Shown: positions 4,332 through 31,417 of the stretch, piece by piece | Layout: every line of letters begins with the position of its first letter | How positions within the stretch are numbered: position 1 is the stretch's first letter | IMG/VR virus record: IMGVR_UViG_3300026302_000105 | Span: 1 to 50,822 of that record | Direction: 5' to 3' (one strand) | DNA from: a virus | Lineage: Duplodnaviria > Caudoviricetes | DNA: 50,822 nt | Program-made: the position numbers and the translations under genes | The notes under the pieces: generated by a model | Told to the model about the DNA's origin: nothing | The model's database searches: none | The model's input: only the letters and a program-made list of their open reading frames with translations

Positions 4332-4341
4332 TTCAAGCTCC

Positions 4342-7300: not shown

Positions 7301-7377
7301 CGGAATGCCTCATCACCCGCGTCGTACTGCTCGACGAACGTCCACGGCCGCGAATATGTGAGATCGGTCAGCGGCAT
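4342..7377 (-). CDS. Tail fibre/spike with C-terminal SGNH/GDSL hydrolase domain
   Basis: 1011 aa; IGDSYT, LGGSG, DGTNS and DGIHP blocks of the SGNH family; acidic coiled N-terminal half. Confidence 0.85.
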   Translation of the reverse strand: MPLTDLTYSRPWTFVEQYDAGDEAFRAAFDAQLNDLVEPINVALGSGLRFVGTWSAASGAFPDERPDQTDIRARDAWVVTLGGAVDDVSFARDEVLVALVDDAGPTYSGNWLRIRFATLAIMQEIADQISEDADQVAEDAEQVSIDRGVVEAARDIAVAAANKLVAWRVDFGLNPGETELTLTAAQASLGSDRIRVFIGGVAQRFGHAWTLDEATITFAEALPDEPVWAEGVTSTGTSLAEVEELVGETSDLVDEAEARALDSAGVAAARGRTGRPWLFVAADEGRPEDLSGYTSDDMALDALLGPSVEIAGGGSHIIAHREWVPLTNGRVYEARFDGICAANSSGISTVAYLVETWEEDGTTNVETIAVRAAAAISVADGRVQIAATLSQDVEGVDHVLDADGRLARAKIATEDADTDGVWRFAEVWLEDVTDRWRAETAAESAGVDADRAEEAANLADSEGNATAAQEARLGAEAALDAASELVAVDYSLALTADLDDLTPTTGETAWISSTGHFWHFDGSDWVDDGLGFLHDFRAVFDLLSFQGDDDLMVFAEAMNKIFGRVDKGALWHIALAKLGTADFELVYYEINDPLAPPIIATDADLKVLWAAPAPGDDASAEVVAARGSAPDLGTRLDASLSPSGVTLAPQFGRETLRNCHYKMIKCRLGEATQINIAAIGDSYTQAAVRWTGPAAQLLMAQYGDAGGGWTGYGWYGGAGGPWVYPGTQPSGINGNVRPSSYTLHFHGAWATVYNGSDGPDLSHVSSSTAGAYVRRAVPASPDHTALRVVYIGTADGVVRHRVDGGSWTSQNVQGTVDAVQTFDIALTAGAHVIEIEVVSGTVKLCGDNALSDASGVRFHKLGGSGSNISQWTARDEAQQRAGWEVLEVDTFTVLDGTNSQVVMSPETWAGHAETLIERLRAAAAVPDILLAMPPENMRENTYPMALYAAQAREIAAAEGIAFRDFQRDFGLVPADYASTSDRPLFNADGIHPEPPNGGRVLQFGFLEMLEA

Positions 7378-7448: not shown

Positions 7449-7670
7449 CTACTCGCTCGGCGCTACCGCGACGGGGCCGCTCGCGCTCCACCGCCAGAGG
7501 TGGCGGCCTTCACGATCATCGGGCAGATCGTCGTCTTCGATCGGTCGCCAGTTCGCACCGGGCGGCACGGTCTTCAGGGCTAGCTCCTCGAGCGTTGCGC
7601 CCCAGGACGGCGCGGGGATTACGACGGCAACACCGCCGCCCGGGGTTTCGTAAAGGATCTTGCCGGCCAT
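7449..7670 (-). CDS. Tail-fibre-associated small protein (assembly chaperone-like)
   Basis: GGVAVVIPA...VPPG...DLPDDREGRHLW pattern; directly after a fibre gene. Confidence 0.65.
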   Translation of the reverse strand: MAGKILYETPGGGVAVVIPAPSWGATLEELALKTVPPGANWRPIEDDDLPDDREGRHLWRWSASGPVAVAPSE

Positions 7671-7674
7671 TGGA

Positions 7675-8367
7675 TTACCTGTGGATGGAGATCGACACGT
7701 CGGGGGAGTCGAAGAGGTTGGTGGCGCTGGCGCCCTTCATCGTGGCGACATCGAGCTGGGATGCTGTCTTGGTCTGGCCCCCGATCTGCGAAACCGTGGT
7801 TCTGGTGTTGGTTGCCGTATCGTCGCTGAGGCAGTTCCCATTCCAGGCATAGTTGGCGTCTTCCATCGCGGTCTCGAAGGTGATCTGGTAGAGGCCTGTG
7901 CCAAGGTCGGTCAGGGCGGCCACGTTGCCAGACGCCTTGATCGCGGCCGTTCCCGTTCCGTCGAAGACCACCCACGCCCGGCAGGCGTAGAGTGGGGCGG
8001 ACCCGACGACATTGAGCTTGTCGTCGAGCTTCGCCTCCAGCTTCGAAGGAGAAATCGTTGCTTCGTCCGTGCCGGTTCCGGCGTCCCAGTCCTCTTGATC
8101 GAGTGCCAGGGCGGCGATCACGGCATCAGCATCGACGGAGGTACGTGCGAGCTTGACGCCCCCGGCGGTCTCTTCGTCTGGATCAACGGCATCGGCCGCG
8201 ACCACCTTGTACCCGATGCCCTCGGCCAAGACGAAGACCACATCGTCAACCGCGACCTGGCGCGCTGCGTCTGCGGCGTAGCCCAGCCCTTCATCCGCCT
8301 CCAGAAGCGCCTGCGTGTCGAAGAAGAGGCCGAGCATCGCGCTCGTGACCTTGGTGAGACCTGCCAT
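7675..8367 (-). CDS. Short tail fibre protein
   Basis: C-terminal CRAWVVFDGTG...SGNV..LTDLGTGLYQITF...DANY, a fibre-tip-type motif. Confidence 0.7.
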   Translation of the reverse strand: MAGLTKVTSAMLGLFFDTQALLEADEGLGYAADAARQVAVDDVVFVLAEGIGYKVVAADAVDPDEETAGGVKLARTSVDADAVIAALALDQEDWDAGTGTDEATISPSKLEAKLDDKLNVVGSAPLYACRAWVVFDGTGTAAIKASGNVAALTDLGTGLYQITFETAMEDANYAWNGNCLSDDTATNTRTTVSQIGGQTKTASQLDVATMKGASATNLFDSPDVSISIHR

Positions 8368-8388
8368 TGCTTTCCCCTTGGCTTAGGC

Positions 8389-8416
8389 GCCGCGCAGCCA
8401 ATTCCGGCAGCGCGGC
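8389..8416 (-). terminator. GC-rich hairpin after 8431..9333
   Basis: GCCGCGCAGCC-N6-GGCAGCGCGGC (1 mismatch); poor U-tract. Confidence 0.45.
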
Positions 8417-8430
8417 TGGGCTTGCTCGCG

Positions 8431-9333
8431 TCAGCCGGCGAACTGAGCGACACCGCGGAACGACCGCGACGGCAGCAGGCACATCAGCTTGATCGGCGTG
8501 GAGCCGTTGGGGTTCGCGTTCGGCGCATAGGTTCCGCGCACATCCCCGGTCGTCGCCGTTGCCACCGCCGTTGCGCCCGCCACGAAGGTGCCGTTCGTCA
8601 CGACAGCGCCGTTGACCACCTCCTTGATGATAGCGCCAGCCGGAGCATAGGCGGGAAGGCCGAAGACCTTGGAGTTGCCCACGGTAAGCCCGGTGACATC
8701 GGCCGAGACCGAGATCCCGGTGATAGTCTTGAACGCCTTGGCGCCGGTCATCGAGGTTCCCGAGCCCGAGCTTTCGACCATGGTCTCGCCGAACTCATCG
8801 GTTCCCGTCACGGTCAGCACCGCGGTCCCGGTCCAGGCGGCGACCACGTTGCGGGGTACATCGAAGGTCGCCACCCCATCCTCGGCGAGGGCCCCGTTGA
8901 TGCCGGTCTCGAGGCCGCCAGCAGCCGTGGCGGCCTGCGAGGCGACAGCGCCATCCGAATCCGAGGTCACCGGCGACCCCAGATCGATCATGACCGGGAA
9001 CAGGTCCGACATCGCGGCGTCGTTGGCGAGGTTGTCGGCGTCGAGCATGGCGCCGCTGCGATCGAGCTCGATCCAGATGATCGCGCCAGCGGGGAAAGAA
9101 GTCTGCGAGTTGTTCGTGATCGAGACGGTCGAGGCGAGATCCTTGACGGTGATCTCGTTGCGTTCCGCCTCCAGCGCGCGCGCCTCGCGGGACGTGATCC
9201 GATGCTTGGTGCCGCCGCCATAGCTGCCGGGCCCGCGGCCCGACGGATAGGCGATGGCAAGCGTACCACCTGCCGCCCAGGCCGAAACCAGGGTGTGCTG
9301 GATCGAGTCGATGGTGTCGTTGACCTTGGTCAT
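8431..9333 (-). CDS. Virion structural protein (decoration/head-fibre-like)
   Basis: Start MTKVND with AGGAG RBS; Thr/Gly/Ala-rich beta protein; has its own promoter motif and downstream hairpin. Confidence 0.65.
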   Translation of the reverse strand: MTKVNDTIDSIQHTLVSAWAAGGTLAIAYPSGRGPGSYGGGTKHRITSREARALEAERNEITVKDLASTVSITNNSQTSFPAGAIIWIELDRSGAMLDADNLANDAAMSDLFPVMIDLGSPVTSDSDGAVASQAATAAGGLETGINGALAEDGVATFDVPRNVVAAWTGTAVLTVTGTDEFGETMVESSGSGTSMTGAKAFKTITGISVSADVTGLTVGNSKVFGLPAYAPAGAIIKEVVNGAVVTNGTFVAGATAVATATTGDVRGTYAPNANPNGSTPIKLMCLLPSRSFRGVAQFAG

Positions 9334-9379
9334 ACCTGTCTCCTGAGAAAGGGCAGGCACAGCGCCCGCATCCAGTGGC

Positions 9380-9414
9380 AGAATGCGGCGCCCGCGGTTC
9401 ATCGTGCGGCGAAA
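9380..9414 (-). promoter_or_regulatory. Putative late promoter B
   Basis: TTTCGCCGCACG-N17-CATTCT, intergenic. Confidence 0.7.
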
Positions 9415-9525
9415 CTAGGGAACTGGCGGGTGCATGGCGGCAGAATCATTGACTCTACCCGGGCTCAGCCCGTTGATCAGGGCCAGGTACCGTTCACTGC
9501 TCTCTTTGAGGTAAGGACCCCAGTC

Positions 9526-10251
9526 TTGTCACTATTCATGACGCTCGATTGTCCGCATTGCTTCGCTCGCACTGCGTCCTTTTCAATAAGAAGTGTCCAC
9601 CTTCTTTCATCAAAGAATATACAAAACATCTACTCAAATGAAATCGAAGTCCATGGAGTTTGCCGCTCCTGCAACCATTCAGTCGTGGCGGGATTTTCCT
9701 ACGTAACGGGATACCAGTTCAGGGCTGACCACCTTCGAGGCGATATCACAAAAGGCTTTAGCGGGAGCGCTATTGGAGGACTTGATCTAAGAGCCAAGAA
9801 GATCTGGCAAGCACCTGAGATCCCAAAATCAGAATTGCCTGACCATCTTCCCGAGAACGTGGTCCGGCCATTAATCGAAGCTGAAACAGCGTTTTCTCAC
9901 GGGCTTTGGGGCGCCGCTGCAGCAAGCTACCGGAAAACGGTCGAGCGCGCCGTCACGCCGCTGATCGACGGCGACACAAATCGAAAAGAGCTGGGCAAAA
10001 AGCTGGGAATGCTAGAGAAGCAGGGGACTCTTCCCGAAGCCATGCTCGAGTGGATTCGCGTCGTCAAAGACCAGGGGAATTTCGCGCTTCACGACAATGA
10101 CTATGACTTTGATGCGAAGGATCAGATCGAGCCTGCTCGGGAGTTCACTATCACCCTGCTCACCTATCTCTTTACCCTTCCAGAGAAGGTGCGCCTCGCG
10201 CGCGCGCTGCCGGAGCCGGAGCAAGACGCTACGGCACCGGAGGGTGCATAG
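9526..10251 (+). CDS. DUF4145 (HEPN-like) protein with N-terminal Zn ribbon; moron
   Basis: CPHC/CRSC motifs; LPENV..PLIEAE...AAASYRKTVE...GNFALH. Visibly lower GC, antisense to late genes. Start is TTG 9526 (AAGGA RBS) or ATG 9538. Confidence 0.85.
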   Translation: MSLFMTLDCPHCFARTASFSIRSVHLLSSKNIQNIYSNEIEVHGVCRSCNHSVVAGFSYVTGYQFRADHLRGDITKGFSGSAIGGLDLRAKKIWQAPEIPKSELPDHLPENVVRPLIEAETAFSHGLWGAAAASYRKTVERAVTPLIDGDTNRKELGKKLGMLEKQGTLPEAMLEWIRVVKDQGNFALHDNDYDFDAKDQIEPAREFTITLLTYLFTLPEKVRLARALPEPEQDATAPEGA

Positions 10252-13200
10252 TCGCAATATTCGCGGCGCGTTGCTGGACCGAGGCGGCGCGCGCCCGGCG
10301 CTGAACCGCTTCAATCTGGAGGCGGATCTCATTGGCTCGTTGCACCCGCTCCGCGCGCGGCAGGTCACCGTTGACCACGGCTGTCAGCTCAGCGCGCAGG
10401 TCGCTCAGCGCTCCATCAGCCAGATCGAGCGGCCGAATGATGCTCTGGCGCCAATCCAGCTGACCGTTGCGCCGGACACCGACATTCATCTCGCCGCTGA
10501 TCTCGTCCCACACCTCCCGAGCCGCTGCATTTTCAGGGTCGGCCTGCAAATCGCTCCACGCCTGGCGCGCCCTGTTCTTCATCTCGGTCAGCTCCTCGCG
10601 CAGATCATAATAGAGGGTCTGCTCCGGGAAGCTGCTGGTCTCCGAGGTGAACGCGCGCGCGATCGGGATGTTGCGCCTTTCCGTCGGCGTGCCGGTGGCC
10701 ATGTCGAGCACTGCACCACCGACCTGCTGCGCGAAGATACCGGTCCCGCCGGTGACGAAGCGATAGAGGTAATCGAGGTGCCCGGGATAAAGGTCGATCC
10801 GGCCAGGGGTATAGGCGTCACCACCAGAGACACGGTTCAGGAACTGCGCAATCTCGACCGCACCGCGAGTGTTGCTGCGCTCAAAGAACTGCGAGGAGCG
10901 CGGCAGGCCCTCGGCGGCGCCGTACCTGTCATCCGGGACGATAGGGGTGTCCATGAAGTTGCGGTTCAGGCGCATGTCGACCAGCGGATCAAGGATCGTC
11001 GGCGTGACCATGTTCTCCCATTGGCCGTCCGCCAGGGGGTTCCACGACATCATGCCGGCGCTGCCGACGTTGCGGATCACCTCCTCGGGCGTGCGACGCC
11101 CCATTGCGGCCAGCATGAGCTCCGAGCCAAGGGCGAGGAACGGGCGCAGAGGGTAGGCCATCCGCCAGTTGACGGTGGTGAGGCGCTGGCGCGTTTGAGG
11201 GCGACCGTCCGGCATAATTACGGTCTCCGTCACGGTCCCGGTCGGAATGATGATGTTGCGGTGCCGGTCGTATTGCGACAGCCGCTCATAGAGCAGGATG
11301 CCCTCGGGATCATCATCGTCCCCCGCCAGCGCGCCCAACAGCGTCTGAAGCGCGCCCAGCACGATGACCGCGGGGAAGGCGACCGCCCAGTTGCGCGGGC
11401 GCTTCGCGAACCGGCCCAGCTTCTCGAGCGACTGGATCGCGGGGTTGATGAAGGCATAGGCCGCCCGTAGCGTCGGCGTGGCGGCTCCGCGACGATAGTA
11501 GTTGGTGGTGGCATCCTGAGCGAGCGCAGCCGCCTTCTCGCGGCTCAGGCCTTGCTCGCGCGCCGCCACATACATCGCCAGTCGCGACGCGCTCTCGATC
11601 GGCTGGTTCAGCTTCGAGATCGCGGTGATCATCGCCTCGCCGGCCGCGGCCATCGCATCACCGGCGGCCGAGGCCTTGGCTTTCAGGCCTGGTGTCGAGC
11701 GACCCGCGCGGCGCGTCATGCGGTCAATGTCGCGCGCAACATCATCCATGTCGCGGAGCGCGACGAAGTTGATCTTGCCCCCGTCGAGCTTCCATTCCTC
11801 GATATACTGCTGCATCCGGCGCTGCTGGGCTGGGCTGACATTCTGGCGCCGCATGATGCGCTGCCGCATCCAGTCAACCGCATCGCCGAACTCGTCGCGG
11901 AAGGCCTCGGTCAGCGCGGGCATGTAGGCCTTGGCATAGGCGGCGGCCATGCCTTTCTTGTCCACGTTGTGCGCGGTCCAGAGCCCTTCGATCAGGTCGG
12001 ACTGCAGGTTCGGCACCGTGAAGTTCGGGTTGAGAGCGGTGGACGTGGCCGCGACCATGCGGGTGACCGCGCCGACGGACACCTGAAAGGATCGCGCGAT
12101 GCGCTCCATGAGCTTGCGCGGATCGTCACCGCCAAGACGGTTCAGGGCGTCCAGAAGATAGGCGTCCTCAATCCGCAGATACACCTTGTCGCCGCCGACC
12201 TTGACCGCCATCGCGTGCCGCGGATCGACATAGCCGAAGTCGACGACATCGCTGACCATCCCGGTCTTGGGGTCCAGCACCTTGCGCGTCGGCAGCTTGC
12301 CGACCACCTCCCAGAGACCGGGTGCCGGATAGGCCTGCACCAGGTTCATCAGCGTCTTTGCCACCCGGTTCTTCTCGGCGCGAACGATGCCTTCCTGCCG
12401 CATGGTGATGATCTGGCTGATTGGATCATCGGCAATTGAAGTCCGCCCCAAGGCGCTTCGCACCTCTTTGCCGCGCATGTCGAAGCCGTTGCCGAGGCGG
12501 CCGATCTGCTCGCCATCATCGCGTTCGGCGAAGCCGCGGAGGGGAACATAGTTCTGATACATGCCGCGCCAGCTCTGGTACTGCTGATCGCTGATCAGAC
12601 CGGCGTTGCGGCGCAGAAGCAGGTCATCGTCCAGCATCTTGCGCAGGCGCTTGGCCAGCGCCTCAAGGGCCGGGACCTTGCCTTGTGCCTGAAGGTCGGC
12701 CAGCAGCGCCTGGGCGGCGCTGTCATGGATGCCGGAGCCGCCACCGGCGGCAAATCGCTGCGGATCGCGCTTCTGCATGACCGCGTTGCGCTCGGGGGCG
12801 TGCTTGGCAACCATGTAGACCCACAGGTCCTCGCGGCTGATGCCGGCCTGCTTCGATGCGCGCTTCATCGCGTCGAAGAAATCCTTCACCTCCCCTTGAA
12901 ACAGGCGCTCCAGTCGCTCCGCAACGCGGGCCGGGAACAGGCTTTGCCGCTGCGAGGCATTCAGCCTGTCCGTCAGCGGCTGTCCGGTCGCTGCCTCGAT
13001 TTCCGCCTGGGCGGCGCGCAGGTAGAGAAACTGGTCCTGGAACGCCTCGCGCACCGCCATGCCGAGACCCCGCTTCGGCAGCGTCCACGACATCGGCAGC
13101 GGCGGCTGGTGGAAGCCTGCCGGCGGGCCGAACTGCGCGTTGGCGCGCTGGATGCGCTCGATTGCAGTCTCCGGCACGCTGGTGTGTGCCGAGGGCTGGC

Positions 13201-16200
13201 CGATTGCCGGGTTGGTCTGCTGGCGGCGGAGGATGGTTGGGATGCGGCTGAACTGCGCTGCGCCCTGACCGCCACCACGCACTTGCCCACGCGCGCCCAC
13301 CTCACCCGCGAGGATCGCGTCGAACACCGACTGAGCATCCCTGAACCCGGCGCCGCGCAGGGCATTGCCGAGGGCCTTGAGGAACCGGCTGATCTGGTTG
13401 AAGGCCCGGGCCAAAACTGGTGTGCGGGGCGCATGCTTGGCGATCCAGGCCTCGGAAAACTCGGCGGCAATGGCCTCCTCGATCTGGCTGATCGGATCGA
13501 GGTCGCGGTAGAGCTCGCGGATGTTGTGCTTGTCCATCCAGGACGCCGCCGCCTCGGCTTCGAGCGCCCGCCATTCCTTCTCGCTGAACAGGCCATATTC
13601 CCGGCCCCAGAGCGCGGGATCGCGAAGCATATGGATCGCCTCGTGGTGCATGGTCGACATGCTGCCCTCGGTCGAATCCAGAGCGACCTGAACCAGTCCC
13701 ATGAGGTAGGAGCCGTCGACCGGCACCACGTTGCCGTCGGCATCGGTGCCCAGGAGGCGATCCACGACACGAAGGCGGATCTCTTCAGGCAGGCCCAGCC
13801 GCTTCCATGCCTGTTGCAGGGCCGTGCCCATGGCGCGGCGCTTCATGTCGAGCTGATCAGCGCTGAAGCTGGAGCGGCGGTAGCGCTCTTCGGCGCGGGA
13901 GAACTTCGGCTCCGCCACCGGATGCGACGGTTCGCTCAAATCAAGCGGCGCCTGCGTCTCCCCGTCCAGCGTCAGGGTGCCGGTGAACGGCTCGACCTGC
14001 GCCAGATCGACGTCGCCAAGATCGTAGGTCAGGGTGATGTGCGGCTGATAGGACGGGAAATCCCACGACGCCCCGGCATCGCGGTATTTCTGCCAGTCCT
14101 CTTGCAGACGGCGCGCGCTGGCGCCGGTGATTGGCAGGACAATGGCTCCTTCGTCGCCCAGTCTCTTGGGTTGCCCGAAATCGGATACCGTGACCGGGCT
14201 GTCGGAGGTGGGCGCCGCGACAGGATCACGGGAAAAAGCCGTGGTGACGTGCAGATCGTCCGCTGCGAGGAGGTTGGTGAAGCCTTGGGCTTTGGCCCAT
14301 TCGACGAGCGCGCCAGGGTTGCTGACGGCGCGGGAGGCATAGAGCGGCGCCGCCTCGGCCTGCGCCTGGATCGGATCCCGGTCGGTCTCTTCGGCCGCGG
14401 CGGTGACGGGCGCGGCGACCAAGACCGGCCCCGCCCGCATGTCGCGCGCCTCGGGTTCGGTGCGGTGCGTCCGGGGCCGTTCGTTGGGCGCATCCACCCA
14501 AGCGCCATCCTTCCGCGAGACGGCCTGCACCGTCGCCGTCCACTCGCCATTCGTGCCGCGGTCGAAGCTGATGACGCGATCATGGCCTCCGCCATAGGTG
14601 CGGACGATGTTACCCGGTGCGAAGTACTCCGCCAGGCGGTCAAGCTGCGCCTCACGTTCGCGCTGCGCCTTGGTGGTGCGCTGTTTCGGCGATGGGGCAG
14701 GCCGCGCCGCCGGCGCATCGAGCAAGTCGCCCTGCGTGTCGAACAACGGCCCGGCGTCGCCCTCATTACCGCCAAGGCGCCGCATCTTGCTCTGCTGCTG
14801 GCGCGCGGCGATCTCGGCGCGCTGACGGTCGCTGACCTGCTGACGCGCCTGGGTGTCGCTGATCTCGGCACCGGGGATGACGGCCTGATCGCCCGCGGCG
14901 GTGCGGTCGGTTACACCCCGATCGGCTGGTTGGGCGCCGGAATCACCGCGCTCATCCCGCCCGCCTTCGCGTTGTCGATCATCTTCTGCAGGTTGTCCCG
15001 ATGCCGCTCGATCGTCGCCCGGCTCTCCGGCGACAGGTTCGCCGCGCTGAGCGAGCGGTTCATCTCCGAAAGGGACTTCTCCCATTTCGGGAGATTGCGG
15101 CTCATCGGCAGCGTTTTCATCGGTGACAGCCTCCTGATAGCTGCGAACAGCCTGGTCGTGCACGGCGTCGTCAATCGAGCCGCCTTCGCGGTTCAGCCGA
15201 TCCACGATAGCGCTGCGCTCGCCTTCGGTCCAGCTTCCACCGATCTCGCCCAGCTTGCGGTCAACTTCCTTCGCAATCCGGTTGATGCGGCGCTGGTTCC
15301 CGCTTGAATCAGCATCGGGCGGCATCACGCGCCGACCGTCAGCCCCCTCGTCGATGGTCTCGTTCAGACCGCGGGCCCGCCGGTCGCGCGCCTCTTGCTC
15401 CATCCGCCGCGCCTCACGCGCGCCATAGCTCACATCGAATGGCGTTCCCGCGGCCTCGCCCGCCAGTGCTTCGATGATCGCCTCACGGTTGGCATAACGC
15501 CCGGTTCCGTCGGTCCCAAGCAGCTGCGCGGCGTCAGTGCCCAGCGTGGCTGGGTCGATGTTGTCGAGATCCGTGGCGCCACCCGGCTTGAACAGGCGGG
15601 GATGCGTTTGCGGTGTGACGCCGCGCGCCGCAAGCTCGCTCGCGGCCCAGCTGGGAACGGTTGCTCCGTTCTGCTGGATCGTCGGCGCGATGCCTCCTTG
15701 GCTCGCGATCTTTGCCATGAGCGGCTGGCGATAACGCAACTCAGGGAACTGCTGCCGAGGCGCCTGCGCATTGCGAGGTGCATATTTCGGCGCCACTTTC
15801 GGCAATTCGGCGCGCCGATCGGCCTCGCGGGCCGCCTCTTCCGCCCTGGCGCGCTGGTTGACCTGAGCCAAGTGCTCACCAATCGGGACGGCCTCATACC
15901 GATCATCTCGCAGGTTTTCGATCTGCGCGCGGCTCGAGGTCTCCATGATGGCCTCGCCGGTTTCCCGGTCTCGGATTACCCAGCTGGCGGGCTCTCGTGC
16001 TGGATCGGCAAAGGAGCCGGGCGCGCTACGCTCGGGCTGCCCAGCCGCAGGCTGATCAACCCGCCCCACAACGGGCTGGGCCTGCGGCTGAACCGGGGCT
16101 GCTGCCTGCCCCACGTCACCTGCTTGCGCGGCAACGGCATCGGTGGCCGCCGGGGCGGCCTGTTCCTCGATCGGCGAAATCACGATGTCGCCGTCTTCGA

Positions 16201-18325
16201 TGTCCTGGCGCGGGAGAACGCTCTCGGTCCCGTCGGCCTCGCGGATGCGGATGCCGTCGGGGTCTTCCCCAAGCACCTCAACCGGGAACGGTTGCTGACC
16301 GCCGATGGATACCCCCATTCGTGCGCGCGCTGCTGCGGCCGGTGGCGGCGCAACCGCTGCACGGCCAGGAGGCAGCGGCGCAGTCGCGACCGCCTGAGGT
16401 TCGGCCGGGACGGGTGCCACGTCCGGCACCTGCCGAGGCACACCGGGGACATAGGGCCGGATGCCGGTGATCTCGGCGCCGCGCTGCACGTCCTCGGGGC
16501 TCGGCTCTTCGCGGGGCGCCCTGACCGGTGCCTCGACCTGCGACCCCATGGCCTGAGCAAGCGCGCCGGTGCCAGCGCCGAGGATGCCGCCGATCAGCGC
16601 CGACTCCGTGACGCCATCCGACCAGCCGCGCTCGGGGTCGTAATACCCTTGCGCGATCAGGTTGTTTAGCGCCTGCGAAGCCGCCTCCTGCGCGGCCTCC
16701 TCGCCCGCGTTTAGAGCGATCTCCCCGAACCGGCGGAACATCGTGCCCGCCACCCTGTCGCGGATGCCCGACGGCAGGAAGCGGAACGCGCGCCCGATCG
16801 GGATCACCTCGCTGGAACCGACCAGCGCGCCCCAACCGGCAGCCGAAAGCGCATCGTCCTGACTGGCGCCAGCCTGAAGCGCTTCCTCGTAGACCTGCCC
16901 GGAATTGCTGGCCGCGCCAATACCGCCGGTGGCGACGATTGCACCACCCGGGCCGCCAAGCGCGCCACCGGCCAGCGCCGCCCCGAGGAAGGCCGACATG
17001 GACCCGGCGCCCTGGGCAAGCGATGCCCAGAAGGACGGATCATCGGGCGGCGTCCCGAAGGTGTCGGCAAACCTGGCGCGCAGGCCCTCCGCAGCCCCAC
17101 GGAAATCCACAGGCTCCTGCTGGCCAGCGACGGCCTGCTGGCCGGCCGCAATGCCGGAAAGACGCTCCTGCCCCACCTGCATATCGGCGATTCGCTGAGC
17201 AAGGATTGCCCGCTCTTCATCGCGAAGGGATGGATCGGCGAGACGCTGCTGCATTTCCATGATGGTGCGCGCGCGCTCTTCCTGTAGACCGGTCGCAGCC
17301 TCACGAGTTCCGGCGCTGGCCGGCGTGTCGGCCAAGGATGCCGCTGTCTGCAACGCATCGAGGCCCATGAGCGACGACACCAGCATCTCGTTGGCGCCCA
17401 GGCCGAACTGCTGGGCCCGACGCTGCAGGAGCGCCCCAATGCCCTCCCCGGCGAAGGGATCCGCCGCCGCGGCCCGTTGCTCCTCGACGCCGCGCATGAC
17501 GCCCTCGACGTACTCGGGCTGCATGGTGCGGGCTTCCAGCGCACGGATCTCCTCGGAGACGCGCGCGATGTCGGCCTCGATCTCGGGCCGCTGCTGTTCC
17601 GAAGCAGATGCGAGCTCAGCCTCGAGGTTCCTCAGCGTGCCCCGGGCACGCTCCATCATTCCCGCATCATAGGTGATCGGCGTGCGCGGGATCGGCGCGG
17701 TGCTGCCCATGGGCGCGGCGCCCGTCTCATGCCGGTAATCGCTCGGCGCCTGGAATTCACCGGACCAGAGGCCGAGACGGGCCGCCTCTGCCGCTTGGGC
17801 CTCACGCGAATACTGCTCGCCCATGTAAGGCAGCGCAGCCCCCGCGCCGACCATGCGGCGATTGAGGTCGGTGGTGCCTGACATCAGCGTGCCCAGGAGG
17901 CGCTGATAGCGATCGGTCCCGCTGAACTCCGGCTGCGATGGGTTCGCCTCCATCAGGCGCGTGAGCATGTCGGTCGACCACTGGCCCGCGGGCCACTCGC
18001 CGTCCGCACGCTGACCGGTCTGCGAGCTTTCCGGCGCGTCGATGCCGGTCATCCGCATCGAGCCCTCGGATGTTCTCACCGTGTCGCCGTCGATTGGCGC
18101 CGGCTGCACGGCAGGCGCTGCCGGGGGCGGCGTGTAAATCGAGGCAGGGCGCGGCTGCGGGCTCGGAGCGGCCGCCGCTGGATCCAGCCCGAGCGCCCGG
18201 TAAACCTCGCCGCGCGGTCGCTCCGCATAGAAGCGCTGATGCAGGGCATCGGCGAGGTCGTTGTCCGACATCTCGCCATACTGAGGATACCGCGCCCGGA
18301 TGTCCGCGATAGTGATGGTGGACAT
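10229..18325 (-). CDS. Giant ejection-type polyvalent protein: SNase + Acb1-like 2H phosphodiesterase + HExxH peptidase + LPD38
   Basis: 2698 aa, last of three ejection-position genes. DGDT/GIDAPE/DRYQR; LHVT/PHIT; HHEAIH; C-terminal LPD38-like NRNFMDTPIVP...PGHLDYL..FVTGG. Confidence 0.85.
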   Translation of the reverse strand: MSTITIADIRARYPQYGEMSDNDLADALHQRFYAERPRGEVYRALGLDPAAAAPSPQPRPASIYTPPPAAPAVQPAPIDGDTVRTSEGSMRMTGIDAPESSQTGQRADGEWPAGQWSTDMLTRLMEANPSQPEFSGTDRYQRLLGTLMSGTTDLNRRMVGAGAALPYMGEQYSREAQAAEAARLGLWSGEFQAPSDYRHETGAAPMGSTAPIPRTPITYDAGMMERARGTLRNLEAELASASEQQRPEIEADIARVSEEIRALEARTMQPEYVEGVMRGVEEQRAAAADPFAGEGIGALLQRRAQQFGLGANEMLVSSLMGLDALQTAASLADTPASAGTREAATGLQEERARTIMEMQQRLADPSLRDEERAILAQRIADMQVGQERLSGIAAGQQAVAGQQEPVDFRGAAEGLRARFADTFGTPPDDPSFWASLAQGAGSMSAFLGAALAGGALGGPGGAIVATGGIGAASNSGQVYEEALQAGASQDDALSAAGWGALVGSSEVIPIGRAFRFLPSGIRDRVAGTMFRRFGEIALNAGEEAAQEAASQALNNLIAQGYYDPERGWSDGVTESALIGGILGAGTGALAQAMGSQVEAPVRAPREEPSPEDVQRGAEITGIRPYVPGVPRQVPDVAPVPAEPQAVATAPLPPGRAAVAPPPAAAARARMGVSIGGQQPFPVEVLGEDPDGIRIREADGTESVLPRQDIEDGDIVISPIEEQAAPAATDAVAAQAGDVGQAAAPVQPQAQPVVGRVDQPAAGQPERSAPGSFADPAREPASWVIRDRETGEAIMETSSRAQIENLRDDRYEAVPIGEHLAQVNQRARAEEAAREADRRAELPKVAPKYAPRNAQAPRQQFPELRYRQPLMAKIASQGGIAPTIQQNGATVPSWAASELAARGVTPQTHPRLFKPGGATDLDNIDPATLGTDAAQLLGTDGTGRYANREAIIEALAGEAAGTPFDVSYGAREARRMEQEARDRRARGLNETIDEGADGRRVMPPDADSSGNQRRINRIAKEVDRKLGEIGGSWTEGERSAIVDRLNREGGSIDDAVHDQAVRSYQEAVTDENAADEPQSPEMGEVPFGDEPLAQRGEPVAGEPGDDRAASGQPAEDDRQREGGRDERGDSGAQPADRGVTDRTAAGDQAVIPGAEISDTQARQQVSDRQRAEIAARQQQSKMRRLGGNEGDAGPLFDTQGDLLDAPAARPAPSPKQRTTKAQREREAQLDRLAEYFAPGNIVRTYGGGHDRVISFDRGTNGEWTATVQAVSRKDGAWVDAPNERPRTHRTEPEARDMRAGPVLVAAPVTAAAEETDRDPIQAQAEAAPLYASRAVSNPGALVEWAKAQGFTNLLAADDLHVTTAFSRDPVAAPTSDSPVTVSDFGQPKRLGDEGAIVLPITGASARRLQEDWQKYRDAGASWDFPSYQPHITLTYDLGDVDLAQVEPFTGTLTLDGETQAPLDLSEPSHPVAEPKFSRAEERYRRSSFSADQLDMKRRAMGTALQQAWKRLGLPEEIRLRVVDRLLGTDADGNVVPVDGSYLMGLVQVALDSTEGSMSTMHHEAIHMLRDPALWGREYGLFSEKEWRALEAEAAASWMDKHNIRELYRDLDPISQIEEAIAAEFSEAWIAKHAPRTPVLARAFNQISRFLKALGNALRGAGFRDAQSVFDAILAGEVGARGQVRGGGQGAAQFSRIPTILRRQQTNPAIGQPSAHTSVPETAIERIQRANAQFGPPAGFHQPPLPMSWTLPKRGLGMAVREAFQDQFLYLRAAQAEIEAATGQPLTDRLNASQRQSLFPARVAERLERLFQGEVKDFFDAMKRASKQAGISREDLWVYMVAKHAPERNAVMQKRDPQRFAAGGGSGIHDSAAQALLADLQAQGKVPALEALAKRLRKMLDDDLLLRRNAGLISDQQYQSWRGMYQNYVPLRGFAERDDGEQIGRLGNGFDMRGKEVRSALGRTSIADDPISQIITMRQEGIVRAEKNRVAKTLMNLVQAYPAPGLWEVVGKLPTRKVLDPKTGMVSDVVDFGYVDPRHAMAVKVGGDKVYLRIEDAYLLDALNRLGGDDPRKLMERIARSFQVSVGAVTRMVAATSTALNPNFTVPNLQSDLIEGLWTAHNVDKKGMAAAYAKAYMPALTEAFRDEFGDAVDWMRQRIMRRQNVSPAQQRRMQQYIEEWKLDGGKINFVALRDMDDVARDIDRMTRRAGRSTPGLKAKASAAGDAMAAAGEAMITAISKLNQPIESASRLAMYVAAREQGLSREKAAALAQDATTNYYRRGAATPTLRAAYAFINPAIQSLEKLGRFAKRPRNWAVAFPAVIVLGALQTLLGALAGDDDDPEGILLYERLSQYDRHRNIIIPTGTVTETVIMPDGRPQTRQRLTTVNWRMAYPLRPFLALGSELMLAAMGRRTPEEVIRNVGSAGMMSWNPLADGQWENMVTPTILDPLVDMRLNRNFMDTPIVPDDRYGAAEGLPRSSQFFERSNTRGAVEIAQFLNRVSGGDAYTPGRIDLYPGHLDYLYRFVTGGTGIFAQQVGGAVLDMATGTPTERRNIPIARAFTSETSSFPEQTLYYDLREELTEMKNRARQAWSDLQADPENAAAREVWDEISGEMNVGVRRNGQLDWRQSIIRPLDLADGALSDLRAELTAVVNGDLPRAERVQRANEIRLQIEAVQRRARAASVQQRAANIATMHPPVP

Positions 18326-18337
18326 GGTGGGTCTCCC

Positions 18338-18985
18338 TCAGGCGGGTGGCAGGCTGAACAGTCCGAGCGGGTCGTTGGGGTCGATGGCTGGCGCGGCCTG
18401 CGCTGCGGAAGGAAGAGGGACAGTGGCAGGCGCAGTTGCCGCGCTGCCTCGCCTCTGAGGCGCCGGCACAGGGTTTCCCTCTCCATCGAGGAAAGGCATC
18501 ATCTCGCCGCTGGCGGTGCGGCCGAACATGAAGCCGTCAATCTCATACTGGCCGTAAAGCCTCGGGCGCGATCCTCCTGCCGCACTGGACGCGCCACCCG
18601 CGCGCGGCGCCGACGATCTGCTGGCGCCACGGCCGGTGCCGGAAGCGCCAGGAAGCCGCAGTTCCTGCCGCAGCATGGTCGATGCGATGGACTCCAGAGG
18701 TCCGGGCAGGTCGCCCGATGACAAGACCGAAAGGAGATCCCGCGCGCGCTGTGTTGCGGCGCCCCCGGCCAGTTGGTTCAGCGCTTGCTGGCCGCTGACG
18801 TAGTTGCGCTTCTCGTCCATCTGCTGCGCGCGCCCTCCGATCATGGCCGAGGCCAGCGGTGCGAGAGCTGCGAGAAGAGGTGAACCAGACTGCTGCGCGC
18901 TGGAATTGGCGCCGCTGAGGGCCGACATGATCATGGGTAGCGCCTGCGCATTGCCCGCCATCCCACCGCCGAAAGCCTTGGCCAT
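18338..18985 (-). CDS. Putative internal virion/ejection protein
   Basis: Ala/Gly/Gln-rich; ends DPNDPLGLF; lies between pilot gene and giant gene. Confidence 0.65.
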   Translation of the reverse strand: MAKAFGGGMAGNAQALPMIMSALSGANSSAQQSGSPLLAALAPLASAMIGGRAQQMDEKRNYVSGQQALNQLAGGAATQRARDLLSVLSSGDLPGPLESIASTMLRQELRLPGASGTGRGASRSSAPRAGGASSAAGGSRPRLYGQYEIDGFMFGRTASGEMMPFLDGEGNPVPAPQRRGSAATAPATVPLPSAAQAAPAIDPNDPLGLFSLPPA

Positions 18986-20052
18986 CAGTGTACCCCCTCG
19001 CCGCGCATCTCACGCTCCATCACCTCGATCCGTCGCAGTGCCGATTGCAGGGCGCCGGCGAGAAGCCCGAGGTAGTCGATCACGTTGATGGTGCGGCCGT
19101 CGCCCAGCCCGGTGATGTCGCGGAAATGCTCGGCCATCGGGCCGATGTGTTGCTCGCCATGATCGCCGGCCGGCCGGTTGCTGTCGCGATAGCGCCACAC
19201 CGCCAGCGGCATCCTGCTCAGGGCTTCGGCTGCCCATGCGTCGCGCAGAGGGCCATCGATTTCCTTCGCCTCCATCGTGCATTTCAGAAGCATGCTTGCG
19301 CCGAGGCCACCCAGAGTGCTGGCGGTGTTCATTCTCTGCGCCTGCTGCGCCTGATACTGGGCCATTTCGTTCTGGTACTGCTGGCCGACCAGCCCCGAAT
19401 AATTCACGCTGGCCATGCTGCCCGACGGCATTGCATTCGGGGGGTTGTAGCCGCCGCCCATCGCCGCGGCGATCTCGGACATGGCGTTCTGGCGCAGGGC
19501 CGCGTCCAGCCCGAATTGCCGCGATTGCTCCTGGCCGGACGCGATGTCGGCATCCATGGCCAGCCGCGAGATCGTGTCCTGGGTTTGCTTGAGCTGCTCA
19601 CCATAGGCGTCATTGAAGCCCTCGGCCCCGACCGGGATACCGCGGGCCTGCAGGTTCGTCAGCAGGCGCTCGTTTGCCTTGTCGATCCCGGGAGACATCA
19701 TGGAGAACGCCCGGTCGAAGATCGACTGCGCGACATCACCCCGGTCTTGGACCTGCAAGCCCTGCGACAGAGTGCCCATGGACTGATCCAGCACGGTCCG
19801 CCCGAGGTCAATCGATGCGGGCTCGAACATCTGGCGCAGCGCCTGCTCGAACGGGCTCTCCACGTATTTCTGTGCGGCCTGCGCGCCCTGCGGAGCGACG
19901 CCCTGCACGAACTGCCCGGTAATGGGGTCCGTATAGCCGTTCAGGATCGACGAGCCGCCGGCGGAATAGATGTCCGGCCGGTTGAATTGCGCCTCGGCTG
20001 AGGCGGTTTCATACGGGTCCGGCGCTTCCGGTGCGTTGCTGCCCTTGCCCAT
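18985..20052 (-). CDS. Ejection/pilot protein with C-terminal peptidase S74-like chaperone domain
   Basis: MGKGS.APEAPDPYETA N-terminus, Gln-rich body, then WRY...HIGPMAEHF...IDYLG. Confidence 0.75.
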   Translation of the reverse strand: MGKGSNAPEAPDPYETASAEAQFNRPDIYSAGGSSILNGYTDPITGQFVQGVAPQGAQAAQKYVESPFEQALRQMFEPASIDLGRTVLDQSMGTLSQGLQVQDRGDVAQSIFDRAFSMMSPGIDKANERLLTNLQARGIPVGAEGFNDAYGEQLKQTQDTISRLAMDADIASGQEQSRQFGLDAALRQNAMSEIAAAMGGGYNPPNAMPSGSMASVNYSGLVGQQYQNEMAQYQAQQAQRMNTASTLGGLGASMLLKCTMEAKEIDGPLRDAWAAEALSRMPLAVWRYRDSNRPAGDHGEQHIGPMAEHFRDITGLGDGRTINVIDYLGLLAGALQSALRRIEVMEREMRGEGVH

Positions 20053-31403: not shown

Positions 31404-31417
31404 CGCCGCGCCCTCGG

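What the first reader, a model, noticed from the sequence alone, without database searches (positions are those of the whole stretch)
10229..18325. Whole architecture: modular polyvalent 'toolbox' protein with self-processing potential
Seen, in order: N-terminal YPQY..SD..LADALH cap, SNase, hydrophobic segment, small unassigned modules (SWVIRDRETGEAIMET; EYFAPGNIVRTYGGGHDRVISF), 2H domain, HHEAIH zincin (~13631-13648), LPD38-like C-terminus. Known: zincin plus LPD38 typify phage polyvalent proteins. Inference: the peptidase may release the cargo domains after injection, and the unassigned modules are candidate new anti-defence domains.
Basis: partly seen in the sequence, partly recalled or inferred. 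Interest (0 to 1): 0.7.

Follow-up and report, generated by a model that had tools for sequence, protein, structure and literature searches.

The report
Giant injected phage toolbox protein
This is one 2698-residue gene in a prophage that most likely encodes a protein packed inside the virus head and shot into the cell with the DNA, carrying a nuclease, an enzyme that destroys bacterial alarm nucleotides, a protease-like domain and several small domains nobody has described.

Summary
It lies in the late operon of a podovirus-like prophage, between virion and tail genes and the tail fibres.

It is a phage-type polyvalent protein (Iyer 2017). A conserved ~980-aa C-terminal module carrying LPD38 is shared with hundreds of giant phage proteins. 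Three relatives of the class have mass-spectrometry evidence of virion association: phi24B gp47, JC1 gp69 and H66 gp60.

What this work adds:
- The "2H" domain is an Acb1-family anti-CBASS phosphodiesterase (Pfam 3e-29) with both HxT motifs intact.
- The SNase catalytic residues are conserved.
- HExxH and a downstream Glu are invariant in 43 of 43 homologous modules.
- The two "unassigned modules" are real, recurrent domains rather than linkers. They also occur as stand-alone small proteins. Module 2 folds confidently into a small SH3/Tudor-like barrel.
- Another conserved stretch ends in a beta-clamp-binding-like motif. Support from the complex prediction is weak.

Self-processing is plausible but untested, and it was already proposed in 2017. 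I class this as a new member of a known kind, with some uncharacterised domain families.

The parts
10229..18325 (-). Whole gene: 2698-aa polyvalent virion/ejection protein (P0001)
   Evidence: SD site GGGAGA upstream of the ATG. Stop at 10229-10231.
18200..18325 (-). N-terminal cap, residues 1-42 (..IRARYPQYGEMSDNDLADALHQRFY..)
   Evidence: phmmer finds it in 9 of the 275 other stored proteins, among them P0003, P0005, P0013, P0014 and P0276 (sequences). Function unknown.
17762..18058 (-). Staphylococcal-nuclease (SNase) domain, residues 90-188
   Evidence: Pfam PF00565, 2.2e-11. The alignment to 1snd keeps the equivalents of D21, R35, D40, E43, Y85 and R87.
16526..17728 (-). Helical region plus Gly-rich, weakly hydrophobic module, residues ~200-600
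   Evidence: Shared with 15 of the 275 other stored proteins, such as P0003. Kyte-Doolittle peak 1.45 at 446-464. Not modelled.
16178..16312 (-). Small module A, residues ~672-716
   Evidence: phmmer hits in 7 of the 275 other stored proteins. Flanked by Pro/Ala-rich linkers.
15824..15985 (-). Module 1, residues ~781-834 (SWVIRxKxTG..ETFD..LN..KYEAVPI..HL..LN)
   Evidence: phrog_25603, 4.7e-11. Alignment A3 has invariant T, G, E, E, L. Occurs as stand-alone 64-95-aa proteins and inside giant phage proteins. No Pfam or PDB sequence match.
15125..15730 (-). Modules B and C, residues ~866-1067 (..GGIAPT..ELAARGVTPQTHPRLF..DLDNI..)
   Evidence: Module B is shared with 42, and module C with 10, of the 275 other stored proteins, including a ~740-aa protein family. 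No Pfam match.
14714..14920 (-). Conserved motif region, residues 1136-1204 (TDRTAAGDQAVIPGAE .. RQQQSKMRR .. GPLFDTQGDLL), ending in a clamp-binding-like motif at 1198-1202
   Evidence: Found in 32 of the 275 other stored proteins and alone in 65-78-aa proteins. Q-x-[DSEQ]-[LMI]-[FLN] in 27 of 33 aligned sequences. Complex prediction with host DnaN gave weak support.
14414..14683 (-). Module 2, residues ~1215-1304 (YFxPGNIV..YGG..DRV .. RxHxTxP): small beta-barrel
13934..14344 (-). Acb1-family 2H phosphodiesterase, residues 1328-1464
   Evidence: Pfam PF23474, 3.3e-29. Genome search places it at the same coordinates. Alignment to Acb1 7t26 and to the C-terminal domain of the Pam3 portal 8hds keeps both HxT motifs, H1359 and H1429.
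13286..13858 (-). Zincin-like metallopeptidase (MPTase) module, residues ~1490-1680; H1561-E1562-x-x-H1565 and E1617
   Evidence: H, E, H and E1617 are invariant in 43 of 43 aligned modules. AF2 places HExxH and the EE pair in helices. The only PDB profile hits are meprins at E ~1.9, aligned on strand plus HExxH. No Pfam hit.
10232..13168 (-). Conserved C-terminal chassis, residues ~1720-2698, including a hydrophobic helix at 2312-2337 (window 11315-11392) and LPD38 at 2346-2555 (window 10661-11290)
   Evidence: phrog_10691, phrog_14770 and phrog_616. 236 homologues at E<=1e-10. 411 phage records by tblastn. AF2 pLDDT 75. 111 BFVD matches at E<=0.001 and none in the PDB. Hydrophobic helix; LPD38.

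Best explanation
The gene encodes the giant internal-virion (ejection) polyvalent protein of a temperate, podovirus-like prophage. The host is an alphaproteobacterium; the nearest named relatives of the protein come from Rhodobacterales and their phages.

Inferred mechanism:
1. The conserved ~980-aa C-terminal module (one strongly hydrophobic helix plus LPD38), and perhaps the 42-aa N-terminal cap, get the protein packed into the capsid. They then get it expelled through the tail with the DNA, possibly contributing to the trans-envelope conduit.
2. Strung between these constant ends is exchangeable cargo, separated by Pro/Ala-rich linkers.
3. The cargo acts in the first moments of infection, before any phage gene is expressed.

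The cargo:
- A catalytically intact-looking SNase nuclease.
- An Acb1-type 2H phosphodiesterase. It would cleave CBASS-type cyclic oligonucleotide signals, arriving as a pre-made anti-CBASS enzyme.
- A zincin-like metallopeptidase. It may cut the chain into separate units (about 0.35-0.4 likely) or act on host or envelope targets.
- At least five small conserved domains of unknown function.

Shown here: domain identities, conserved catalytic residues, the modular shuffling, and the late-operon context.

Taken from homologues: virion packaging.

Inferred: ejection, timing, substrates and processing.
For: Context:
- The late operon contains the terminase large subunit (29850-31517), portal (27661-29850), major head protein, tail proteins and virion proteins. 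The giant gene follows, then tail fibres (PHROGs).

Class:
- LPD38 scores 8.5e-27.
- The C-terminal half matches 236 giant proteins at E<=1e-10. Their N-terminal Pfam content varies widely: ART-PolyVal, ddrB-ParB, methylases, SNF2, InPase, RelA/SpoT, GGDEF, lysozyme.
- 411 phage records match, including Stx-converting phages at 1e-49 and Ruegeria phage 45A6 at 3e-90.
- 111 BFVD structural matches, which among the 50 rows shown are mostly pieces of large polyvalent-protein-associated or unnamed phage proteins.

Virion association of relatives:
- phi24B gp47 (LPD5/LPD1/LPD38 plus a metallopeptidase) is in the virion proteome and absent from the cryo-EM shell. Its authors propose it is an ejection protein (bioRxiv 10.64898/2026.04.10.717836, passages).
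- JC1 gp69, with LPD38, was found by virion mass spectrometry (PMC9144972, passages).
- H66 gp60 carries modules 1 and 2, and its record note says it was verified by mass spectrometry.

Cargo:
- Acb1 family at 3.3e-29, with both HxT motifs aligned to 7t26.
- SNase catalytic residues are kept.
- HExxH plus E1617 are invariant in 43 of 43 modules.

Shuffling:
- Each module recurs in different partners and in a different order.

Acb1 tied to head-internal proteins:
- 401 genomes of the host's order were sampled, and 3 have an Acb1 match over the cut-off.
- These are this protein, a portal-Acb1 fusion (624 aa), and an Acb1 ORF directly downstream of a MuF-like gene.

CBASS in the host's family:
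- SMODS cyclases are present in 5 of 100 other genomes.

Concept:
- Iyer 2017 describes 2H, MPTase and LPD38 in phage-type polyvalent proteins. The paper suggests that 2H domains could degrade signalling nucleotides (PMC5512222, sections and passages).
Against: - No direct evidence that this particular protein is packaged, ejected or cleaved.
- The lysogen itself has no SMODS cyclase (0 matches, genome 100% complete). The Acb1 target is therefore not in this host.
- The zincin has no significant match to any known peptidase family. Pfam gives none. PDB profile hits reach only E ~1.9. Its N-terminal half is modelled at pLDDT below 50.
- The C-terminal module has no solved structural relative, so its role in ejection comes from context and homologues only.
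- Iyer 2017 notes that the N4 virion RNA polymerase, which carries an MPTase, is packaged unprocessed.
- SNase and Acb1 are in 0 of the 119 other listed LPD38 homologues (only the best 120 of 236 are listed). The combination has no comparative support.
Confidence: 0.7

Rival explanations
1. The zincin is not a self-processing enzyme. It acts on the host envelope or peptidoglycan, or on host proteins, during ejection. The protein works as one uncut chain.
For: The phi24B authors propose that the metallopeptidase of gp47 helps degrade peptidoglycan. Iyer 2017 notes that N4 vRNAP, ArdC and TraC1 are transferred full length, and that MPTases may target host proteins. No conserved cleavage site was found here.
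Against: The zincin module sits at variable positions between cargo domains in different proteins (for example at 932 of 3267 and 2951 of 3973). Two copies occur in P0015. This fits a processing role as Iyer argued. The Pro/Ala-rich linkers between all domains are good protease substrates. No peptidoglycan-hydrolase-like feature was detected.
Confidence: 0.3
2. The 2H domain works on RNA rather than on CBASS signals. Possible substrates are 2',3'-cyclic phosphate ends, 2'-5' oligoadenylates, or repair or cleavage of tRNA.
For: PHROGs labels the family 'RNA ligase' (phrog_755). There is a weak LigT hit of 1e-4, below the cut-off. Iyer 2017 offered an RNase role as one option. The lysogen has no SMODS cyclase.
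Against: The Acb1 model scores 101.9 bits against 22.8 for LigT. The direct alignment to the solved Acb1 7t26 covers residues 12-138 of 144. No RNA ligase was found among the 40 window ORFs scanned with PHROGs. Acb1 enzymes are broad, so both activities could coexist (review PMC13728456, passages).
Confidence: 0.2
3. The protein is not packaged or injected. It is a cytoplasmic late protein, or a purely structural protein (tape-measure-like or scaffold), whose enzyme domains are relics.
For: No proteomics exist for this prophage. The C-terminal fold has no solved relative.
Against: Catalytic residues of SNase, Acb1 and the zincin are all intact. Three relatives of the class have mass-spectrometry evidence of virion association. 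The gene is in the virion module.
Confidence: 0.08
4. The 'unassigned modules' are unstructured linkers of no function.
For: Long Pro/Ala/Gln-rich stretches do exist at 43-82, 583-671, 717-780, 1068-1135 and 1304-1335.
Against: Modules 1 and 2 have invariant columns across 19 and 23 sequences. They occur as stand-alone ORFs. Module 2 folds at pLDDT ~95.
Confidence: 0.02

Closest known systems
Phage-type polyvalent proteins with LPD38 (Iyer, Burroughs, Anand, de Souza, Aravind 2017): phi24B gp47, Burkholderia phage JC1 gp69 / Bcep22 gp75 'DarB-like'
   Same: A giant single polypeptide in the virion module of a podovirus. It has a C-terminal LPD38-containing module (25-30% identity over ~850-1000 residues), a zincin-type HExxH module, and variable enzymatic cargo. 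Relatives are detected in virions.
   Different: The cargo differs. Those proteins carry LPD1/LPD5, methylase, helicase and lytic transglycosylase domains. This one carries SNase and Acb1, which are in 0 of the 119 other listed homologues. The name Bcep22 gp75 and its size are partly recalled; I saw them only through the JC1 paper.
Acb1 (T4 gene 57B product; structure 7t26), anti-CBASS 2H phosphodiesterase
   Same: Pfam family membership at 101.9 bits. Both HxT catalytic motifs align.
   Different: Described Acb1 enzymes are ~150-aa stand-alone proteins made after infection. Here the domain is embedded at residues 1328-1464 of a 2698-aa virion-module protein, so it would arrive pre-made. Neither the Acb1 paper (PMC9117128) nor the 2H PDE survey (10.1101/2025.08.21.671373) contains the words fused, virion or packaged in its main text. 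'Fusion' occurs only for expression tags. Supplements could not be seen.
Portal-2H and MuF-2H fusions (cyanophage Pam3 portal, PDB 8hds; noted by Iyer 2017)
   Same: An Acb1-like 2H domain attached to a head-internal virion protein. The Pam3 portal C-terminus is the best PDB sequence match, 4.6e-11. A portal-Acb1 fusion exists in a genome of the same genus.
   Different: The carrier is the LPD38 ejection-type protein, not the portal or MuF.
PLxRFG-domain giant virion proteins of F116-like Pseudomonas phages (H66 gp60, 3787 aa)
   Same: They share module 1 (56% identity) and module 2 (48%) in the same order. The record note says gp60 was verified by mass spectrometry.
   Different: They have a different C-terminal chassis. 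The window protein has VPLRGF, not PLxRFG, and NCBIfam gave only two weak sub-cut-off SNase-region hits and no other family at E<=0.1. They carry a methyltransferase instead of SNase and Acb1.
P1 DarB/DdrB and N4 virion RNA polymerase (injected phage proteins with an MPTase)
   Same: The concept is the same: large proteins packed in the head, delivered with the DNA, acting before gene expression, and carrying a zincin module (Iyer 2017).
   Different: No sequence relationship was tested or seen here beyond the shared domain class.

Membership tests
Phage-type polyvalent protein (Iyer 2017) | Several unrelated effector or enzyme domains (2 to 15) in one polypeptide | tested here: met
   SNase, Acb1, the zincin motif module and LPD38, plus at least 5 further conserved modules.
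Phage-type polyvalent protein (Iyer 2017) | [quoted passage not shown] | tested here: met
   PF18857, 94.9 bits against a cut-off of 27. It is the only copy in the genome.
Phage-type polyvalent protein (Iyer 2017) | Encoded in a phage or prophage, in the virion module | tested here: met
   PHROG annotation of neighbours: terminase, portal, head, tail and tail fibres.
Phage-type polyvalent protein (Iyer 2017) | Packaged in the virion and delivered on infection | not testable with these tools
   Only relatives have proteomic evidence.
Acb1 (PF23474) anti-CBASS phosphodiesterase | Sequence-family membership over the curated threshold | tested here: met
   101.9 bits against 27; profile positions 3-140 of 144. 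108.4 bits in the genome search.
Acb1 (PF23474) anti-CBASS phosphodiesterase | Two catalytic H-x-T/S motifs of the 2H fold | tested here: met
   LHVTT (H1359) and PHITLT (H1429) align with LHTTI and PHITLS of 7t26.
Acb1 (PF23474) anti-CBASS phosphodiesterase | Cleavage of CBASS cyclic di- and trinucleotides, and rescue of the phage from CBASS | not testable with these tools
   Needs biochemistry and infection assays.
Staphylococcal nuclease (PF00565) | Family membership and the Ca-binding and catalytic residues (D21, R35, D40, E43, R87 of S. aureus nuclease; numbering recalled) | tested here: met
   44.6 bits against 21. The alignment to 1snd shows IDGDTV, R..IDAPE and Y.R conserved.
Zincin-like metallopeptidase (MPTase of polyvalent proteins) | An HExxH helix plus a downstream Glu on a second helix | tested here: met
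   H1561, E1562, H1565 and E1617 are invariant in 43 of 43 modules. Both lie in predicted helices.
Zincin-like metallopeptidase (MPTase of polyvalent proteins) | Significant sequence or fold match to a known zincin | tested here: inconclusive
   No Pfam hit. The PDB profile search returned 4 hits, all meprins at E 1.9-2.1, aligned on the active-site strand plus HExxH. The N-terminal part of the module is modelled below pLDDT 50. It was not folded alone.
Beta-sliding-clamp-binding motif (QL[SD]LF / QADMF type; consensus recalled) | Conserved Q-x-x-[LM]-[FL] pentapeptide in a flexible region | tested here: met
   QGDLL at 1198-1202. Q-x-[DSEQ]-[LMI]-[FLN] is present in 27 of 33 aligned homologues.
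Beta-sliding-clamp-binding motif (QL[SD]LF / QADMF type; consensus recalled) | Binding to the host DnaN pocket | tested here: inconclusive
   Complex prediction with host DnaN gave weak support. The score was 0.39 and the best of 3 controls was 0.01. The mark was reached by 58 of 80 solved complexes and 2 of 110 mismatched pairs. At 0.60 or under it was reached by only 7 of those 80, and by both mismatches that passed. The three runs scored 0.39, 0.46 and 0.05. The runs agree in at least 5% of contacts. Partner pLDDT was at least 47. Many clamp-peptide complexes are solved, so the pass may reflect likeness only.
PLxRFG-domain giant phage proteins (NCBIfam name) | Match to the family model | tested here: not met
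   NCBIfam gave only two weak SNase-like PRK06518 hits, far below their cut-offs. The local motif is VPLRGF.

The most novel reading that the evidence does not exclude
The protein is a pre-loaded first-minute counter-defence package. A ready-made Acb1 enzyme enters with the DNA and disarms cyclic-oligonucleotide immunity before any phage transcription. A conserved motif region (residues 1136-1204, ending in QGDLL) tethers released cargo to the host beta sliding clamp, and so to DNA. Modules 1 and 2 are new families of small host-target-binding or anti-defence domains that phages also deploy as stand-alone proteins and as inserts in ADP-ribosyltransferase effectors.
Probability: 0.2. Interest if true: 0.7.

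Novelty: new member of a known kind. Interest (0 to 1): 0.45.

Why it matters
All described anti-CBASS enzymes are made after infection starts. A version carried inside the virion would act earlier. It would also show that anti-signalling enzymes belong to the injected toolbox predicted in 2017. In the host's order, all three clear Acb1 domains found sit on or next to head-internal proteins, which hints that this delivery route is a rule rather than an oddity.

The protein also points to several uncharacterised domain families found in phage giant proteins:
- Module 1.
- Module 2, the SH3-like barrel, which is also inserted in ART-PolyVal domains.
- Module B.
- The clamp-motif region.

These are cheap to test. 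The class itself, the zincin-processing idea and the 2H-degrades-signals idea are already in print, so the advance is incremental.

Tried and rejected
- **Pfam on ten overlapping pieces at E<=10.** No family for the cap, the hydrophobic module, modules A, 1, B, C or 2, or the zincin.
- **NCBIfam.** Only two weak SNase-like hits below their cut-offs.
- **Pfam on 28 proteins that carry the modules.** No family covers the modules. The three hits were CbtA_toxin in P0229, ddrB-ParB in P0235 and a weak GlgE hit in P0166, all outside the modules.
- **PDB sequence or profile search, module 1 (A3).** 0 hits at E<=10.
- **ESM Atlas.** Module 2 scored 0.80 at best and module 1 scored 0.77, with no named family. 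These are leads only.
- **First combined alignment (A1).** It misaligned module-2 proteins onto module 1 and was discarded.
- **N-terminal cap search among longer proteins.** 1 hit, P0276. Later phmmer over the stored proteins found 9.
- **Earlier findings of this scan.** Nothing held.
- **PADLOC on three neighbouring ORFs.** No hits.
- **Host CBASS.** No SMODS cyclase in the lysogen.
- **Literature.** 'polyvalent protein' together with 'Acb1' is in 0 papers. Supplementary files, such as Iyer 2017's full LPD list and alignments, could not be seen. Modules 1, 2 or B may be among LPDs that never reached Pfam.

Full report
**1. What is there**

Window 10229-18325 on the minus strand is one uninterrupted ORF of 2698 codons. 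It starts at an ATG six bases after a GGGAGA Shine-Dalgarno site, directly after the stop of the upstream gene. It ends at TAG 10229-10231. HHEAIH is at residues 1560-1565, window 13631-13648.

Pfam recognises three domains:
- SNase, residues 90-188 (2.2e-11).
- Acb1, PF23474, residues 1328-1464 (3.3e-29).
- LPD38, residues 2346-2555 (8.5e-27).

A LigT hit over the same 2H region is weak (1e-4, below the cut-off).

**2. Context**

PHROG scans of 40 candidate ORFs show a prophage. On the minus strand, in order of transcription, they find:
- small and large terminase, portal (27661-29850) and major head protein (24308-25264);
- tail proteins, an "amidase"-family protein and a GNAT acyltransferase;
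- a virion structural protein (18985-20052);
- the giant gene;
- tail-fibre genes (7675-8367, 4342-7377).

A CI-like repressor (40903-41568, plus strand), recombination genes and a methyltransferase lie further on. The window is part of a chromosomal contig of a 4.87-Mb genome rated 100% complete, and the genome has a single LPD38 gene.

The gene therefore sits where podoviruses keep their internal-virion (ejection) proteins. Named relatives of the protein come from Cereibacter, Mameliella and Ruegeria phage 45A6, which points to a Rhodobacterales-type host.

**3. The conserved chassis**

Residues ~1576-2673 match three PHROG families of giant proteins of unknown function.
- A search with residues 1470-2698 found 236 proteins at E<=1e-10 among 1483-4722-aa candidates. 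Of the 120 listed, nearly all carry LPD38.
- Their other Pfam domains differ widely: ART-PolyVal, ddrB-ParB, cytosine and adenine methylases, SNF2 helicases, InPase, RelA/SpoT, GGDEF and lytic transglycosylase.
- tblastn finds the module in 411 phage records, none covering 80% of the query. They include Stx-converting phages (25% identity, 1e-49), Vibrio, Pseudomonas, Ralstonia, Rhizobium and Burkholderia phages.

An AlphaFold2 model of residues 1470-2669, built on a 29-sequence alignment, has mean pLDDT 75 and pTM 0.69. It is mostly helical with two beta subdomains. It has 111 matches at E<=0.001 in the viral predicted-structure library; among the 50 rows shown these are mostly C-terminal pieces of large polyvalent-protein-associated or unnamed phage proteins. 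It has none in the PDB by Foldseek. VIA-align gave only uninformative helical-hairpin matches. That model is too long for a fair VIA test, so I do not claim the fold is new.

The only strongly hydrophobic segment of the whole protein is at 2312-2337, just before LPD38.

Experimental evidence exists for relatives of the class.
- phi24B gp47 (2811 aa; LPD5, LPD1, LPD38 and a metallopeptidase) is abundant in the virion proteome but absent from the cryo-EM shell. Its authors propose it is a capsid-packaged ejection protein (bioRxiv 10.64898/2026.04.10.717836, passages read).
- Burkholderia phage JC1 gp69, a "DarB-like" protein with LPD38 at 4195-4401, was found by virion mass spectrometry (PMC9144972, passages).

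**4. The cargo with a known family**

*Acb1.* The domain aligns with the solved Acb1 (7t26) over residues 12-138 of 144, with both catalytic HxT motifs in register (LHVTT/LHTTI and PHITLT/PHITLS). It aligns even better with the C-terminal 2H domain of the cyanophage Pam3 portal protein, 8hds.

*SNase.* The alignment to staphylococcal nuclease (1snd) keeps IDGDTV, R..IDAPE and Y.R. These are the calcium ligands and catalytic Arg/Glu/Arg; the S. aureus numbering is recalled.

*Zincin.* No library recognises it.
- The ~190-residue module around HExxH recurs in 41 other stored proteins, at very different positions along the chain and twice in P0015.
- In a 43-segment alignment, H1561, E1562, H1565 and E1617 are invariant in 43 of 43, E1616 is conserved in 42 of 43 and G1538 in 41 of 43.
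- This is the pattern Iyer et al. give for the MPTase core: an HExxH helix plus a Glu on a later helix.
- A profile search of the PDB returned only four hits, all meprin metallopeptidases, aligned on the active-site strand and HExxH. At E 1.9-2.1 they are not significant.
- I treat the zincin assignment as probable and its fold as untested.

**5. The unassigned parts**

A search of 1.84 billion representative proteins with residues 640-1330 gave 272 hits at E<=0.001. They fall on distinct sub-stretches. Together with Pro/Ala-rich linker runs, they divide the region into five parts.

*Module A (~672-716).* Found in 7 other stored proteins.

*Module 1 (~781-834).*
- It occurs as stand-alone proteins of 64-95 aa and inside giant proteins.
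- Its 19-sequence alignment has invariant T, G, E, E and L, with consensus SWVIRxKxTG..METFD..KVDALNT.KYEAVPI..HLA.LN.
- It is in 37 phage records (F116-like Pseudomonas, Ralstonia and Sinorhizobium phages) and 1 plasmid.
- One homologue is fused to a CbtA toxin domain.

*Modules B and C (~866-1067).* They are shared with a family of ~740-aa proteins, which also carry a Gly-rich hydrophobic region.

*A motif region (1136-1204).* See section 6.

*Module 2 (~1215-1304).*
- It is found in 72 other stored proteins, again also as stand-alone 86-177-aa proteins.
- Its 23-sequence alignment has invariant G, V, V, R, H, T and P (YFxPGNIV..YGG..DRV ... RxHxTxP).
- AlphaFold2 gives mean pLDDT 85, and about 95 over the core. 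The fold is one helix, five strands and a short helix.
- In seven small proteins it lies between the N-terminal and C-terminal halves of what looks like an ADP-ribosyltransferase. Six of the seven hit ART-PolyVal over profile positions ~8-55 just before the module, two of them over the cut-off.
- It is in 33 phage records, all Pseudomonas F116-like, and 1 plasmid.
- In phage H66 both modules lie in gp60, a 3787-aa PLxRFG-domain protein. The record note says it was verified by mass spectrometry.

None of these modules has a Pfam family. Nothing here assigns them an anti-defence function.

**6. A clamp-binding-like motif**

The motif region reads TERT.AGEQ.VIPGAE ... RQR.E.EARQQQSKMRR ... GPLFDTQGD[LM][FL] across 33 aligned sequences.
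- The last five residues fit Q-x-[DSEQ]-[LMI]-[FLN] in 27 of 33. Examples are QGDLL (this protein), QGDMF, QSDMF, QRDMF and QDSLF.
- From memory, this resembles the bacterial beta-clamp-binding motif (QL[SD]LF; QADMF in Pol III alpha).
- Iyer 2017 contains no occurrence of "clamp".
- I tested the idea with the one complex job available, using the host's own DnaN (372 aa, L002) against residues 1130-1215 with a 13-row alignment.
- The verdict was weak support. The score was 0.39 and the best of three controls 0.01. The runs scored 0.39, 0.46 and 0.05.
- The tool states that the mark was reached by 58 of 80 solved complexes and 2 of 110 mismatched pairs. At 0.60 or under it was reached by only 7 of those 80, and by both mismatches that passed.
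- The runs agree in at least 5% of contacts. Partner pLDDT was at least 47.
- Clamp-peptide complexes are abundant in the PDB, so the pass may show likeness only.
- Phage use of the host clamp through such motifs is known for Mu MuC (PMC12867686, search listing only).
- I keep this as a lead at about 0.3.

**7. Constant ends, variable middle**

The 42-residue cap recurs in 9 other stored proteins, including the three closest C-terminal homologues (P0005, P0013, P0014), P0003 and a 759-aa protein, P0276. The SNase and Acb1 segments hit 0 of the 275 other stored proteins. No other listed LPD38 homologue carries their Pfam families (0 of 119). The stored set is biased by how it was collected, so this shows the combination is uncommon, not that it is unique.

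**8. Acb1 rides on head-internal proteins**

In 401 sampled genomes of the host's order, 19 match PF23474 at E<=0.001, but only 3 exceed the cut-off. These three are:
- this gene;
- a 624-aa Phage_portal_3 plus Acb1 fusion in a genome of the same genus;
- a 344-aa Acb1 ORF immediately downstream of a MuF-like gene.

This fits Iyer 2017's remark that 2H domains are fused to MuF or portal domains, and their suggestion that such domains degrade defence signalling nucleotides.

SMODS-type CBASS cyclases are in 5 of 100 other genomes of the host family and not in the lysogen. The target system exists in the phage's host range but is patchy, as expected for accessory cargo.

**9. Mechanism and confidence**

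- Polyvalent virion protein of the LPD38 class: about 0.9.
- Packaged and ejected: about 0.75, by homology and context.
- Acb1 domain active on cyclic oligonucleotides: about 0.65.
- Zincin active: about 0.6.
- Zincin cuts the chain itself: about 0.35-0.4.
- Modules 1 and 2 are functional binding or effector domains: about 0.8. That they act specifically against defence is unknown.

**10. Novelty**

The class, the MPTase-processing hypothesis and the idea that 2H domains degrade signals are in print (PMC5512222). What is new:
- the specific SNase-Acb1-zincin-LPD38 architecture;
- the link of the 2H cargo to the now-characterised Acb1 family, with intact catalytic motifs;
- the description of several domain families that are not in Pfam;
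- the clamp-like motif.

I found no paper holding both "polyvalent protein" and "Acb1". The words fused, virion and packaged do not occur in the main texts of the Acb1 paper or the 2H PDE survey. Supplements were closed, so Iyer's full LPD catalogue may already include some of these modules.

Noticed in passing
window ~9544-10251 (+), inside the mechanical ORF 7660-10251 (+): A convergent plus-strand gene lies between the tail-fibre genes and the giant gene. Its 3' end overlaps the giant gene's by 23 nt. It hits phrog_1305 'DNA binding protein' (2.2e-27) and Pfam DUF4145 (3.6e-07), with no PADLOC hit. It looks like a moron inserted in the late operon. The true start was not determined.
   Followed up: partly
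L003:76-1950 (+) (genome G327, same genus): A 624-aa fusion of a phage portal protein (Phage_portal_3, residues 49-408) and Acb1 (476-618, 1.5e-44). This is the same arrangement as the solved cyanophage Pam3 portal.
   Followed up: partly
L004:1051-2085 (-) and L004:2174-3379 (-) (genome G383): A 344-aa Acb1 plus Gp49-like ORF lies directly downstream of a MuF-like ORF. The MuF-like ORF also gives a sub-threshold intein-splicing hit (28.6 bits against a cut-off of 35.8). It may be a split or intein-interrupted MuF-Acb1 arrangement.
   Followed up: no
proteins P0224, P0192, P0209, P0238, P0245, P0266 (and P0211 without a Pfam hit): Module 2 sits as an insert inside ART-PolyVal-like ADP-ribosyltransferase domains of 299-404-aa proteins. 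This suggests it is a target-recognition or adaptor domain.
   Followed up: partly
protein P0229 (135 aa): Module 1 (residues 4-58) is fused to a CbtA toxin domain of a type IV toxin-antitoxin system (1.2e-08).
   Followed up: no
proteins P0145, P0161, P0178, P0180, P0191, P0225, P0272 and others (~700-750 aa): This is a family of mid-sized proteins. They are built from a Gly-rich hydrophobic region, module B/C, an acidic linker and the clamp-like motif region. They look like a cut-down relative of the N-terminal half of the giant protein. No Pfam family was found in the two tested (P0145, P0161). Their genomic context was not examined.
   Followed up: no
window 11315-11392 (-), residues 2312-2337: The only strongly hydrophobic, transmembrane-like helix of the protein (Kyte-Doolittle 2.08) lies just before LPD38. 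It is modelled as a helix (fragment residues 841-865).
   Followed up: partly
window 8431-9402 (-), 18338-18985 (-), 25294-26490 (-), 26791-27411 (-): These ORFs in the virion module have no PHROG or Pfam match. The first two directly flank the giant gene or the tail-fibre genes.
   Followed up: no
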